This document shows, one piece after another, positions 4,967 through 63,907 of a DNA stretch of 64,000 bases (its first letter is position 1; each line of letters begins with the position of its first letter). The stretch is from Eledone cirrhosa (taxonomy: Eukaryota), in NCBI GenBank assembly GCA_964016885.1, contig OZ024763.1, positions 6,200,001 through 6,264,000 on the forward strand. Reading direction: 5' to 3'. The translations under genes and the position numbers were made by a program. Below the pieces are notes generated by a model, which saw only the letters and a list, made by a program, of their open reading frames with translations, searched no databases and had not been told where the DNA came from.

Positions 4967-5395
<429 letters not shown>

Positions 5396-10509: not shown

Positions 10510-10730
10510 ACTGATAAGGCCATAATTCAGCAAAGTATTCAATACTTGGGATAGTAGAGTGTAAGTATAGTAGAGAGTCAGGGCCCAACAGCTGAGCTCT
10601 TGCTGTTTCGACAGCATATTTCATACTGGTCCAACAGCTGAGCTCTTGTTGTTGTGACAGTAAATTCCAGTATGGAATTTGCTGTCGAAAGAGCAAGAGC
10701 TAAGCTGTTGGCCCTGACTTTCTACTATAC
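10510..10730 (-). mobile_element. Older, CpG-decayed copy of the fold-back family (inverted repeat 10565-10730)
   Basis: Imperfect arms of about 65 bp. gctgtcgaaacagcaagagctcagctgttggg aligns to gccgtcgaaacggctggagctcagccgtcgggg. Flank caaagtattcaatacttggg matches 38081-38100. Confidence 0.6.
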
Positions 10731-10752
10731 ATACATACATACATATATATAT

Positions 10753-38036: not shown

Positions 38037-38038
<2 letters not shown>

Positions 38039-38173
38039 ACGAAGGAAATGTGGTAAGGAACCAGGTGGACCATAACGCACCAAAGTAGTCAATACTTAGG
38101 GTAGTAGAGTGGGTAATAGGGACGAGTAGGACCCCGACGGCTGACCTCAAGCCGTCGGGGTCCTACTCGTTCC
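38037..38173 (-). mobile_element. Same family as 55285-55484, shorter fold-back, between (TA)n and (GA)n
   Basis: Hairpin acgagtaggaccccgacggct...gccgtcggggtcctactcgt; the flank is the near-identical reverse complement of 55403-55484. Confidence 0.7.
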
Positions 38174-38289: not shown

Positions 38290-38939
38290 AAGAAAGAGAG
38301 AGAGAAGAGATAAGCAGGTCTAATATTAGCTAGCTATGAACTAGAATCTTAGAAACTAAAGAATATATGTTATGTGGGAGGGGACAAGGTGGGAGGGGGG
38401 GGGGGGGTGATATGATGGTAACTGCTGGTATTTCATGTACCATGCCAACAGCTCAGCAAATCTCTACATATACACTCACAGTCGGGGACTAGGTGTTGAA
38501 ACAGCAAGGGCAAACCCATCAGGGGTCCAGACTCTTTATAATATATATATATATATATAAGTATGTATACGTACATACATATGTGTATACAGACGTACAG
38601 TAGTATGTATATATATATATACAGACATGCACACATATATATATGTACGTATGGATTCACCGAACATTTATTATAATGCTCGGTTTGTTTGTTTGTAAAC
38701 AAACAAACCCCGAATTAAGCCGTACAGTGTTCAGGCAACCATCGTCGCCCTTTTGTTCAACACTGACACAGGAACGATGTACTAGTTTCAAGCTTATTAG
38801 CTATCGTCAGCACCGTATACCTTCCTGCCAGATGATTGAACGTCTGAAAGTATATACTTTCCTTATGCATATTAACGGCTGAGCAGCCTAATTTGCATAT
38901 CGAGTGGGTTAGTCGGCCGGGCGTACCGAAAACGATAAA

Positions 38940-39132
38940 TGGAAAAGAATGAAACGAAATTTCATTTCTCACTCTTAGTACGGCTGATACTTAAATGTAA
39001 GTATGTATGTATATGTACATGTACATACATATATGTATACAGACGTACAGTAGTATGTATATATATACATACATGCACACATAAGTATCAGCCGTACTAA
39101 GAGTGAGAAATGAAATTTCGTTTCATTCTTTT

Positions 39133-39135
<3 letters not shown>
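38940..39135. repeat. Perfect inverted repeat, 54-bp arms with about 88-bp microsatellite-like spacer
   Basis: tggaaaagaatgaaacg...cggctgatactta versus taagtatcagccg...cgtttcattcttttcca. Confidence 0.85.
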
Positions 39136-39210
<75 letters not shown>

Positions 39211-39700: not shown

Positions 39701-39922
39701 ATATTTATTAAAATAACAGATTAAAGTTTAAGCAAAGAATCGCTGCTTTCACCCTTAACAGATCTTCAGAAGATCCCGTTAAGGGTGAAAGCAGCGATTC
39801 TTTGCTTAAACTTTAATCTGTTATTTTTAATAAATATTTGCTCTACGGTTCTTATATATTTGATATATATTTATCCTTATCGACCCTCTTTGGATTTTAG
39901 TCTTCAAATTTATTATTATTAC
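39701..39922 (+). mobile_element. Fold-back element (palindrome 39701-39837 centred on tcttcagaaga) with 3' tail, inside (TA)n
   Basis: Arms of about 65 bp. The minus-strand arm reads CTGAAGA-tctgttaagggt-GAAA. The tail gatc/atcga(g)ccctctttggattttagtcttca recurs at 63398-63498 and about 53860-53905. Confidence 0.6.
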
Positions 39923-54839: not shown

Positions 54840-55284
54840 CAATGTTCGTGTATGAACAGAATTGTTTCTACTTTAGGCACAAGGCCAGCAATTACTCCAG
54901 TGTATTACTGGTACTTTATTTTATCGACCTCCGTAAGGATGAAAGGCAAAGTCAACCTCGGCGGGATTTGAACTCAGTCCGTAAAGGGACGTAACTCTGC
55001 TACAAAACATAGCCTCCGACCCTCGACTGATACTGCCAATTCACCTGTATGAACTTAATATAATACATTATATAAATATAATCAAAATAATCCCCGACAA
55101 TCAAATAAGCTGAAGGAACAAACTGCGAGCTCTTTATATATGCAACCCTAAGCGAGTCCTCTCTGGATGTTGGTTTTTGTATTATGACTATTATAGTAAG
55201 GAGAAAAATACACAGATCCCCTATTATCGGACACAAATATTTATGTATATTTCTCTTCTTACTATGTTATATATATATATATAT

Positions 55285-55482
55285 GAACGATTAGGACCCC
55301 GACGGCTGAGCTCAAGCCGTTTCGACGGCTAATTCTGGACTTCTAGAGTCCAGTAAAGCCGTCGAAACGGCTGGAGCTCAGCCGTCGGGGTCCTACTCGT
55401 TCCTATTACCCACTCTACAACCCTAAGTATTGAGTACTTTGGTGCGTTATGGTCCACCTGCTTCCTTACCACATTTCCTTCG

Positions 55483-55484
<2 letters not shown>
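55285..55484 (+). mobile_element. Fold-back element with the 3' half of a hammerhead, between (TA)n tracts
   Basis: Palindrome 55285-55402. The right arm reads gccgtc-GAAA-cggctg-gagct-cagccgt-C-ggggtcc. Its tail is the reverse complement of 38037-38120. Confidence 0.65.
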
Positions 55485-55540
<56 letters not shown>

Positions 55541-56140: not shown

Positions 56141-56631
56141 TATAGAAAAATAATACGCAAAACTTACATTAGTAACCATATTTTGGAGGTTTGTCTAATC
56201 ACGAGTAGTGGTGGTGGTGGGAGCAGAGAGGAAGAGAGAGAGAGAAGTAGAAAGAAAGTGAAGGGGGAGGAGACGCGAGAGAAAAACAAACGTTTTAAAC
56301 TGAACACGGTCGGTAAACCTTAAGTTTCAGCTGCGAAACCTTTCCTCCCACACAAAAATATATAAATAACCCGAAACACCCAATTAATAAAATATTTATT
56401 TATTTATACAGGTAAATTTAACATTAAATTAAAAATAAAAGATAAAATAAAAAAAGGATTTTTGATGATAAATTATTTAATTACGAAAATAAACACAAGC
56501 ATACATAGGAGTGTGGTAGGAGAGACGCAACATTAACTCAATCAATACAATAGAAGGGATAGACCTTAAGTTTCGGCTACGAAATTTAAACGCAGTCCAG
56601 TTAAGTATGTTTAAATGGGATATATATATAC

Positions 56632-56990
56632 ACAATATATTAACAAATGGAAACTATATTTATAAAACCATATTTATTTTATTATACATATTTCAAGGGC
56701 CACCAAGGCAAATTATGGTGCGCTTTCATCAGATAAAATACAATACAGATTTGTTTTATAAATAAATATTGACATACCCTGAAAAAAAACAACAACCGTA
56801 ACTATCCAGGAAGCTCCAACCGTTAAGGTTGTCTTTTTTTCAGGGTATGTCAATATTTATTTATAAAACAAATCTGTATTGTATTTTATCTGATGAAAGC
56901 GCACCATAATTTGCCTTGGTGGCCCTTGAAATATGTATAATAAAATAAATATGGTTTTATAAATATAGTTTCCATTTGTTAATATATTGT
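56632..56990. repeat. Long inverted repeat (about 157-bp arms, about 45-bp spacer), each arm holding a hammerhead
   Basis: acaatatattaacaaatgg...ccctgaaaaaaa is the exact reverse complement of tttttttcaggg...ccatttgttaatatattgt. Confidence 0.9.
56882..56947 (+). ncRNA. Type I hammerhead ribozyme motif (mirror copy on minus strand at 56675-56740)
   Basis: Stem I tattttat/ataaaata, core CTGATGA at 56890-96, stem II aagcgcacca...tggtggccctt, GAAA, short stem III ATA-TG-TAT, ATA cleavage triplet. Confidence 0.7.
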
Positions 56991-57120
56991 ATATTTACTC
57001 CACTAATCTGTTGAGTGCTTTATATCAGTTATAAAAATGTTTAAGCTTGTTGAATCCCAACAAATTAAATATAACCTCTGCATATATTAATCAGAATGGA
57101 TGCAGTTAAAAGTAGTTAGA

Positions 57121-57242
57121 CCATTACCCACCAGAGTACTTGATACCTGGAGCAGTTGAATGGGTAACATGAAGGATTCGGGACCCCGACGGCTGAGCTC
57201 CTGCCGTTTTAACCGTTGAAAGTTCAGCCGTCGGGGTCCCGA

Positions 57243-57245
<3 letters not shown>
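57121..57245 (-). mobile_element. Related subfamily of the fold-back element
   Basis: ttcgggaccccgacggctga...tcagccgtcggggtcccgaa (57177-57243), next to (TA)n. Fragments recur at 63285-63330 and 61385-61456. Confidence 0.6.
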
Positions 57246-57309: not shown

Positions 57310-57680
57310 AAAAAAGAGAATCAGTGTTGCGACGAATGGAATTTATTGGACATATTACAATCGATTTTCTGGCAACCAGGTCGAGGCACGATCGATGTGA
57401 TTATCGAACCTGACTCTGAAACTCGCAAGGTCCTCAGATACGTCTTGATTGATTCTACGAAGCAGATTTTCCTAGGGGGATGACGGCTGAGAGAAAAGTA
57501 CTCAATACCGAAGTAGAGTTTAAATATTCATTTTATTAAGGCTAAGTAGTGAGTCTTGTTACTCTGGAGTTTCACCTGCTTCTCACAGGGTCATCAGACT
57601 AATTCTTGTCTGATGACCCTGTGAGAAACAGGTGAATCTCCAGAGTAACAAGACTCACTACTTAGCCTTAAAATGAATAT
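57310..57680 (-). mobile_element. Penelope-like pLTR relic with fold-back (inverted repeat 57524-57680)
   Basis: Arms of about 75 bp carry hammerhead cores. On the minus strand these are followed by AATAAA and gtattgagtacttt, a motif shared with the 55.3/38.1 kb elements. Abuts (TA)n. Confidence 0.55.
57604..57653 (+). ncRNA. Type I hammerhead ribozyme motif, degenerate (inverted partner at 57554-57599)
   Basis: Stem I tcttgt/acaaga, CTGATGA, stem II cctgt-gagaa-acagg, GAAT (GAAA in the inverted copy), stem III (a)ctc-ca-gagt, GTA triplet. Confidence 0.65.
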
Positions 57681-63284: not shown

Positions 63285-63355
63285 GTCAGTTGAAACGGTA
63301 GGAGCTCAGCCGTCGGGGTCCCGAATTTGTCATATGTGCGTGTGTGTATATATAT

Positions 63356-63801: not shown

Positions 63802-63907
63802 ATAAACACGCGTACACCTTAAATGTCAAGTAAGCCTGTCTCTCTCCCTATATATATATAGGGAGAGAGACAGGCTTACTTGACATTTAAGGTGTACGCG
63901 TGTTTAT
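63802..63907. repeat. Perfect 106-bp palindrome centred on (TA)6
   Basis: ataaacacgcgtacacc...ctctccc-tatatatatata-gggagag...ggtgtacgcgtgtttat. Confidence 0.9.

What the first reader, a model, noticed from the sequence alone, without database searches (positions are those of the whole stretch)
55285..55484. Palindrome centres map to hammerhead hairpins, suggesting snap-back synthesis during retrotransposition
Copies of one family share the same 3' tail but fold back at different points. At 55.3 kb the axis is the loop of putative stem II (ctggact-tctag-agtccag), with GAAA, stem III (acggctg/cagccgt), GTC and the stem I strand intact but CTGATGA replaced by the inverted copy. At 38.1 kb the axis is the stem III loop. 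At 39.77 kb (another family) the axis is the CTGAAGA core itself. Inference: nascent cDNA self-primes at ribozyme stems and copies itself, producing a 5' inversion. That would explain the inverted pLTRs known in Penelope elements.
Basis: partly seen in the sequence, partly recalled or inferred. Interest (0 to 1): 0.75.

Follow-up and report, generated by a model that had tools for sequence, protein, structure and literature searches.

The report
Mirrored Penelope stubs record RNA starts
This palindrome is one of over 13,000 short mirror-image copies of a Penelope-type jumping gene; their centres sit not on ribozyme hairpins but at one fixed point that is likely where the element's RNA begins, and a small class stops at the ribozyme's predicted cut site, which hints that the ribozyme works in the living animal.

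Summary
The palindrome is real. It is a 5'-truncated insertion, in (TA)n, of a Hydra-clade Penelope-like element (PLE); a full-length parent with a 719-aa RT/GIY-YIG-type ORF was found (L254). The hairpin/snap-back reading fails as a general rule. In 75 unselected inverted copies both arms stop against a sharp wall at an initiator-like (T/C)AGT (13,323 such copies genome-wide); two other families stop at TTAGT too. Only 325 are centred on stem III. The inverted arm often holds sequence absent from the direct arm, so it needs its own primer. Best model: both nicked target strands prime at two internal RNA sites, both cDNAs run off the RNA 5' end (likely the start site), and they are end-joined. 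In a minor class (267 pattern matches) most arms stop at the predicted hammerhead cut. Inverted pLTRs, self-priming and both-strand extension are in print, and this scan noted two-armed priming before on other DNA. Mapping the axis to RNA 5' ends was not found in my searches. No RNA data.

The parts
55285..55341 (-). Inverted, tail-less arm: parent positions +58 (outer end, fixed) to +1 (inner end). Inferred cDNA primed by the second target strand.
   Evidence: outer end preceded by (TA)n in 46 of 48 copies
55342..55346 (+). 5-nt junction filler not in the parent; its last base is a G directly before +1 (possible copy of the RNA cap, inferred)
   Evidence: against parents; fillers differ between copies
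55347..55403 (+). Direct arm, parent +1 to +58; +1 is the A of (T/C)AGTCC, an initiator-like motif and likely transcription start
55364..55391 (+). 3' half of a type I hammerhead: GAAA 55364-67, stem III 55368-72/55380-84, predicted cut after 55386 (so +42 = 55387), stem I 3' strand 55387-91
   Evidence: parent fold; alignment of six parents
55404..55485 (+). One-sided 82-nt tail (+59 to +140) between the two fixed ends; in full elements it continues into the 5' UTR and ORF
   Evidence: 16,569 exact copies of its last 32 nt; continuation in L114, L154, L164, L165
55486..55525 (.). (TA)n target, also on the left (about 55268-55284); a target duplication cannot be resolved in it
38037..38173 (-). 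Same family, minor class centred on the stem III loop (38143-38149, loop in sense orientation)
39701..39922 (+). Second family (parent hammerhead AGTTT CAGAAGA ... AAACT); junction by a 3-nt microhomology at 39765-39767, 4-8 nt downstream of its own TTAGT +1
57481..57680 (-). Third family, palindrome with canonical CTGATGA hammerheads; parent has TTAGT directly before stem I, where arms stop

Best explanation
The palindrome is a short insertion of a Hydra-clade Penelope-like retrotransposon whose two arms were likely made as two separate cDNAs, primed from the two nicked strands of a (TA)n target at two fixed internal sites of the RNA, run off the RNA's 5' end (likely the transcription start) and joined head to head. 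Shown in sequence: fixed outer ends at +58 and +140, one tailed and one tail-less end, a sharp inner limit at -4..+1, variable junctions, a coding parent. Inferred: both-strand priming (shown in vitro for another PLE, PMC11167929), that +1 is a capped start site, that both arms usually copy the same RNA, and end-joining. About 2% of templates likely began instead at the hammerhead cut (+42), and about 2% of copies are joined through stem III.
For: Sharp wall: of 75 simple inverted copies among 119 tail-selected ones, inverted-arm ends lie in -4..+9 in 63, direct-arm starts in 50, and only 1 of each lies upstream of -4. Genome count 13,323 against 325 for stem III. Contig depth in runs X1 and X4 steps up about 16-18-fold at the bin holding +1 and down about 30-fold after +140. 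Direct arms that follow unrelated internal sequence also start at -3..+2 (L092, L153, L165 twice; family 2 L191). Same TTAGT limit in family 2 (mode +1 on both arms, none beyond -4, n = 41) and, predicted beforehand, family 3. A TATA-like box lies 29 nt upstream in two subfamilies. Family 2 has an untemplated G before +1 in 8 of 10 unexplained bases (counted by eye; p = 0.003); such a G is attributed to cap copying in PMC9341517 (passages). Two primers: in L254 the multi-kb ORF-bearing body ends tail-less at +58 while an 830-bp inverted arm carries the tail; long inverted arms exceed direct arms in L061, L062, L078, L087; L303 has arms from two subfamilies. Same RNA usually: subfamily markers agree between arms in 36 of 37. 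Cut-site class: direct arms starting at +42 number 14 against 3, 1-2, 0 and 1 at +43..+46 (by eye, 100 rows of 1,534); 6 of 8 such copies with a short inverted arm stop at +42/+43 on that arm too, against 3 of 75 (p = 6e-6). Of the first 100 of 267 matches (by eye), 49 have both arms ending exactly at +42 with a filler; fillers with both letters run A-then-T in 6 and T-then-A in 1, as expected if each cDNA gains untemplated A.
Against: No RNA evidence for the start site or the cut. The G before +1 is weak in the main family (9 of 61 unexplained bases; T 25, A 19). TTAG also fits a splice acceptor, and the D. virilis Penelope intron ends at helix I (PMC4209133). Family 2 lacks a TATA box, 12 of its 30 tail-selected copies run on past +1 (by eye), and its junction pattern allowed only 14 extra nt upstream. 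About 22 of the 100 cut-site rows belong to the subfamily whose parents carry a C3.A8 core mismatch expected to impair cleavage. 35 of those 100 are blunt CCCCGGGG junctions that a 2-nt CG microhomology could also give. PMC11167929 found no reads ending at the cut site of its element. My junction caller is rough: 44 of 119 copies were left out (no arm called, long, or complex) and a few mutated arms were miscalled. Asymmetric deletion after insertion could mimic part of the arm asymmetry.
Confidence: 0.72

Rival explanations
1. One reading: the nascent cDNA folds back at hammerhead stems and copies itself, so centres map to stems.
For: 325 copies are centred on stem III, by my rough estimate far more than independent random ends would give. 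+1 lies 5-10 nt from the apical loop of the parent's long stem II. Self-priming was proposed for PLE palindromes (PMC3846280).
Against: About 40 times more copies are centred at +1. Fold-back at the stem II tip would keep the loop and 5' strand, but only 1 of 75 direct arms passes -4. +1 falls at different hammerhead positions in three families. Stem III loops are 11 sense to 9 antisense. The other two 'hairpins' cited are junction products.
Confidence: 0.04
2. One cDNA runs off the RNA 5' end, then snaps back on itself, copies itself to +58 and joins the target; later asymmetric deletions blur the centre.
For: Explains the +1 wall, arm concordance (36 of 37) and coupling of the two arms at +42. 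Long palindromes are known to lose their centres (recalled).
Against: Cannot make L254, L061, L062 or L087, where the tail-less arm holds up to kilobases absent from the tailed arm, nor the mixed-subfamily L303. One-base A or T fillers between perfect arms, and A-then-T fillers, fit two 3' ends joined, not a priming loop.
Confidence: 0.1
3. Twin priming holds, but the wall at +1 is not a start site: a splice acceptor or other processed end, or a limit inherited from already truncated source copies.
For: All three motifs read pyrimidines-TAG; the Penelope intron ends at helix I. ORF-bearing copies such as L154 themselves begin at about +4.
Against: Arms usually keep the AG and sometimes 1-4 further genomic bases, then stop; no recurrent exon-like sequence is seen before +1 (listing, by eye). 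Junctions are diverse rather than inherited.
Confidence: 0.11
4. An ordinary MITE of a DNA transposon with a TA target.
For: Fixed outer ends, inverted repeats, TA flanks, high copy number.
Against: One-sided tail, variable centres, contiguity with an RT-endonuclease ORF, partial tandems and template jumps.
Confidence: 0.01

Closest known systems
Hydra clade of C-terminal EN+ Penelope-like elements (Craig et al. 2021, PMC8557442; section 11 read, passages elsewhere)
   Same: Single ORF, RW-basic and DKT motifs, CxCx5C linker, CxxC and CxH around the conserved E/N, (TA)n target, hammerhead in the pLTR, inverted 5'-truncated copy, one-sided tail.
   Different: Tail is 82 nt rather than 30-40; 3' UTR about 0.75-1.2 kb; hammerhead has a U3-A8 or C3.A8 core and a long stem II split by the inferred start site; most copies are 200-bp stubs. 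That paper attributes the tail to endonuclease resolution.
Poseidon_Ac in vitro mechanism (Frangieh et al. 2024, PMC11167929; parts 1-2 of 4 read)
   Same: Both target strands cut and extended, two internal RT start sites whose spacing is the tail, predicted dimer, AT-rich target.
   Different: That work found no difference in start site between strands, did not explain inverted copies, found cleavage dispensable and saw no reads ending at the cut. Here the two ends nearly always use different sites and a minor class ends at the predicted cut.
Adineta vaga Penelope inverted pLTRs (Arkhipova et al. 2013, PMC3846280; passages and discussion read)
   Same: Head-to-head inverted pLTR, junction palindromes, optional tail, TATA and initiator-like motifs in the pLTR.
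   Different: Explained there by self-priming on an antisense template; the copies here favour two primers on a sense template.
LINE-1 twin priming (Ostertag and Kazazian 2001; seen only as a reference entry, mechanism recalled) and R2 ribozyme-defined 5' junctions (PMC3774820; search listing and start of abstract)
   Same: Second target strand primes internally and cDNAs are joined; an RNA self-cleavage site fixes a 5' junction.
   Different: L1 inversions are not duplications of the same segment and have no fixed second site; R2 uses an HDV-like ribozyme for all full-length copies, here a hammerhead for about 2%.

Membership tests
EN+ Penelope-like element | Single ORF with RT followed by GIY-YIG-type endonuclease | tested here: met
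   L254 3580-5739, 719 aa, with YRDDG and a C-terminal VIY..YIG region read by eye. Pfam gave 0 families at E 0.1, so this rests on motifs, not on a profile match.
EN+ Penelope-like element | pLTR from partial tandem, inverted 5'-truncated copy, one-sided tail | tested here: met
   L254, L153/154, L164/165; tail at exactly one end in 20 of 20 and 33 of 41
Hydra clade | RWK, DKT, CxCx5C linker, CxxC and CxH, no CCHH | tested here: met
   RWR (one conservative change), DKT, CNCPDRSIC, CNLC, CKH; absence of CCHH judged by eye
Hydra clade | Insertion in (TA)n | tested here: met
   46 of 48 left flanks and 43 of 48 right flanks
Hydra clade | Phylogenetic placement among reference Hydra RTs | not tested
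   no reference proteins fetched, no tree built
Type I hammerhead ribozyme | Three stems around the conserved core | tested here: met
   parent fold shows stems I-III with GAAA and GUC; Rfam listed no hammerhead among the best 150 of 238 window matches
Type I hammerhead ribozyme | 3-8 core pair (C3-G8, or U3-A8 as in PMC4209133) | tested here: inconclusive
   U3-A8 in 10 of 40 parents, C3.A8 mismatch in 30 of 40, the latter enriched by the query; family 2 has CAGAAGA
Type I hammerhead ribozyme | Self-cleavage at the predicted site | not testable with these tools
   only the indirect pile-up of arm ends at +42
MITE | Uniform internal structure, symmetric termini, link to a transposase | tested here: not met
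   centres vary, one-sided tail, parent encodes RT

The most novel reading that the evidence does not exclude
The centres of these palindromes are a fossil map of RNA 5' ends: both arms are reverse-transcribed from one RNA and run off its end, which is the capped start site in most copies and the hammerhead cut in a few hundred. That would be genomic evidence that PLE hammerheads cleave in the germ line and that the cleaved RNA is a transposition template, and it would replace self-priming as the origin of inverted pLTRs.
Probability: 0.5. Interest if true: 0.72.

Novelty: new member of a known kind. Interest (0 to 1): 0.52.

Why it matters
How Penelope-like elements make inverted pLTRs, and whether their hammerheads do anything in vivo, are stated open questions (PMC8557442, PMC11167929, PMC3846280). 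The element itself is an ordinary Hydra-clade family. Its thousands of stubs give base-level predictions (start at +1, priming at +58 and +140, cut at +42, both arms from one RNA) that a 5' end mapping or the existing in vitro assay can test directly. It also warns that such stubs look like MITEs or microRNA hairpins to annotation tools.

Tried and rejected
Rfam scan of the window: microsatellite and hairpin matches below gathering scores, no hammerhead among the 150 listed. Pfam: nothing for the ORF. RNA runs: no RNA holder listed; the four runs laid are contigs of unknown kind and cannot show starts. Whole-element query was not used for the breakpoint distribution because it selects copies like the query; its 30 loci entered only the base-before-+1 tally. 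Family 3 exact tail pattern found only 3 copies, so a DNA query starting at +4 was used, which hides ends downstream of +4. My first junction caller was discarded because one reference biased calls to +9. The idea that arm length (55-65 nt) is what is conserved was not tested separately from the motif, since arm lengths are similar in the three families. A pause at the foot of stem III or in the G run was considered for +42; it does not explain both arms stopping at the same base in one copy, but is not excluded. Literature searches for a published mapping of PLE palindrome centres to start or cut sites found none; the library lacks most subscription papers, and supplements of the papers read (for example Hydra consensus files of PMC8557442) were not opened.

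Full report
Observation. The window lies at G000:C24:6200001-6264000 of a 3.0-Gb genome. At 55285-55485 there is (TA)n, a 57-nt inverted arm, a 5-nt filler, the direct arm, an 82-nt tail and (TA)n. The fold is far beyond chance (z = -17.6). The 38.1-kb copy has the same tail and folds at stem III; the 39.77-kb and 57.6-kb palindromes are other families.

The parent. The last 32 nt of the tail occur exactly 16,569 times. Un-inverted copies lead upstream through a 3' UTR into an endonuclease domain, and four loci continue past the tail into an ORF. L254 holds an open 719-aa ORF with the motifs that PMC8557442 gives for the Hydra clade. Pfam did not recognise it and no tree was built, so clade membership rests on motifs and target. 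The parent carries a full type I hammerhead fold: stem I ACCCC/GGGGT, a long stem II, GAAA, stem III, GTC. Its core is TTGAGAA or TTGATAA (the U3-A8 variant described in PMC4209133) or CTGAGAA, never CTGATGA.

Where the centres are. I numbered from the A of (T/C)AGTCC as +1. The sample was 119 tail-selected copies: 29 from a DNA query and 90 of the first 100 pattern rows, all on contig C1. 75 had a simple inverted arm; 44 were long, complex, lacked an arm or defeated the caller. Inverted arms end in -4..+9 in 63 of 75, direct arms start there in 50 of 75, and one of each passes -4. Junctions show microhomology in 36, a filler in 27 and are blunt in 12. Genome-wide, 13,323 palindromes match a pattern for this class and 325 a pattern for stem III; both are lower bounds and the patterns differ in tolerance. 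Summed contig depth in runs X1 and X4 rises at the bin holding +1 and falls after +140; it is no copy number but shows the same limits in other data. Family 2 (11,762 tail copies; 1,655 short palindromes) has its mode at the A of TTAGT on both arms in 41 loci (40 of the first 50 listed plus L188), none beyond -4, within the limited range the pattern allowed; 12 of 30 tail-selected copies run on un-inverted. For family 3 I predicted TTAGT before stem I; parents L281 and L296 have it, and apart from these and L283 the arms in 30 rows stop at or after -1 (by eye). So the wall follows a sequence motif, inside stem II in one family and at the edge of stem I in two. Fold-back at the true stem II tip would keep the loop at -9..-6; this is almost never seen.

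What +1 is. It resembles the TCAGT-type initiator (recalled), has a TATA-like box 29 nt upstream in two subfamilies, and is also where direct arms restart after template jumps (L092, L153, L165, L191). In family 2 an untemplated G precedes it in 8 of 10 cases not explained by the other arm, the mark ascribed to cap copying (PMC9341517); in family 1 this signal is weak (9 of 61). PLE promoters lie in the pLTR (PMC2377424, passages). A start site is therefore likely but unproven: no RNA holder was listed, and a splice acceptor remains a rival.

How the arms are made. Outer ends are fixed at +58 and +140 and nearly always one of each (20 of 20; 33 of 41 with 1 both and 7 uncalled). This matches the two internal start sites and both-strand extension shown in vitro for Poseidon_Ac (PMC11167929). 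The inverted arm reaches more than 10 nt further than the direct arm in 25 of 75 copies, the reverse in 5. In L254 the ORF-bearing body ends at +58 and only an 830-bp inverted arm has the tail. Self-copying cannot give this. Subfamily markers agree between arms in 36 of 37 copies, with one clear mixed copy among 20 others (L303): usually one RNA, sometimes two. In stem-III-centred copies the loop is sense in 11 and antisense in 9, so either cDNA may supply it; annealing of two cDNAs, fold-back of either, or later deletion between the resulting direct repeats all fit.

A class at the predicted cut. Among the first 100 of 1,534 copies whose direct arm starts between +38 and +54, +42 is the peak inside the hammerhead (14, with 6 more at +41, against 3, 1-2, 0, 1 at +43..+46; about a third of rows were indels or other subfamilies and were dropped; by eye). 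Of 12 such loci fetched, 3 had no inverted arm, 1 a long one, and 6 of the other 8 stopped at +42/+43 on the inverted arm too (against 3 of 75, p = 6e-6). A pattern for this class matches 267 times; of the first 100, 49 have both arms ending exactly at +42 with a filler, 35 are blunt and ambiguous, 12 run on 3 nt or more, 4 are unclear (by eye). Fillers are mostly A, T or A-then-T. A physical RNA end at the cut explains the coupling best. Against it: the subfamily with the C3.A8 core is not depleted (about 22 of 100), and PMC11167929 saw no such ends for its element.

Verdict. The finding is a real, ordinary stub of a known clade, and the proposed hairpin mechanism is not supported beyond a 2% class. 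Inverted pLTRs, tails and self-priming are in print, and this scan noted two-armed priming at fixed sites before; my reading was written down before those look-ups. [quoted passage not shown] Five literature searches and one word search of the scan did not find this stated. Interest 0.52; best explanation 0.72.

Noticed in passing
window 56625-56997: 164-bp inverted arms with a 45-nt spacer; each arm holds a CTGATGA...GAAA hammerhead-like motif about 70 nt from the centre, so here the centre is on no hammerhead stem. A poly-T/CAG stretch near the centre resembles a splice acceptor.
   Followed up: no
window 10520-10740, 57110-57245, 63289-63330: Diverged relatives (75-90%) of the 55.3-kb family with their own fold-back junctions; stem III letters differ but still pair in part.
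   Followed up: partly
window 38935-39140 and 63802-63907: Inverted arms enclosing a microsatellite; look like a different, MITE-like repeat.
   Followed up: no
L165 (G000:C1:27008138-27010229): Three pLTR units in tandem, each restart at the same point just after the ORF start codon, preceded by a short inverted arm: repeated template jumps or a small circle.
   Followed up: partly
L303 (G000:C1:63662810-63663160): The two arms carry markers of different subfamilies: two RNA templates in one insertion, or gene conversion.
   Followed up: partly
L063, L074: Long copies that appear tail-less at both ends, and L246 tailed at both: exceptions to the one-tail rule.
   Followed up: no
L075 about 990-1045 and many window positions (3123, 13051, 16181, 33220, 47565, 54860, 61522): The element's 3' UTR carries a 45-nt piece of an abundant SINE-like repeat; tRNA-like matches at 5080 and 54164.
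   Followed up: no
L089 downstream flank: A fragment of a different Penelope-type RT lies directly behind the tail-less end; families pile up in the same (TA)n tracts.
   Followed up: no
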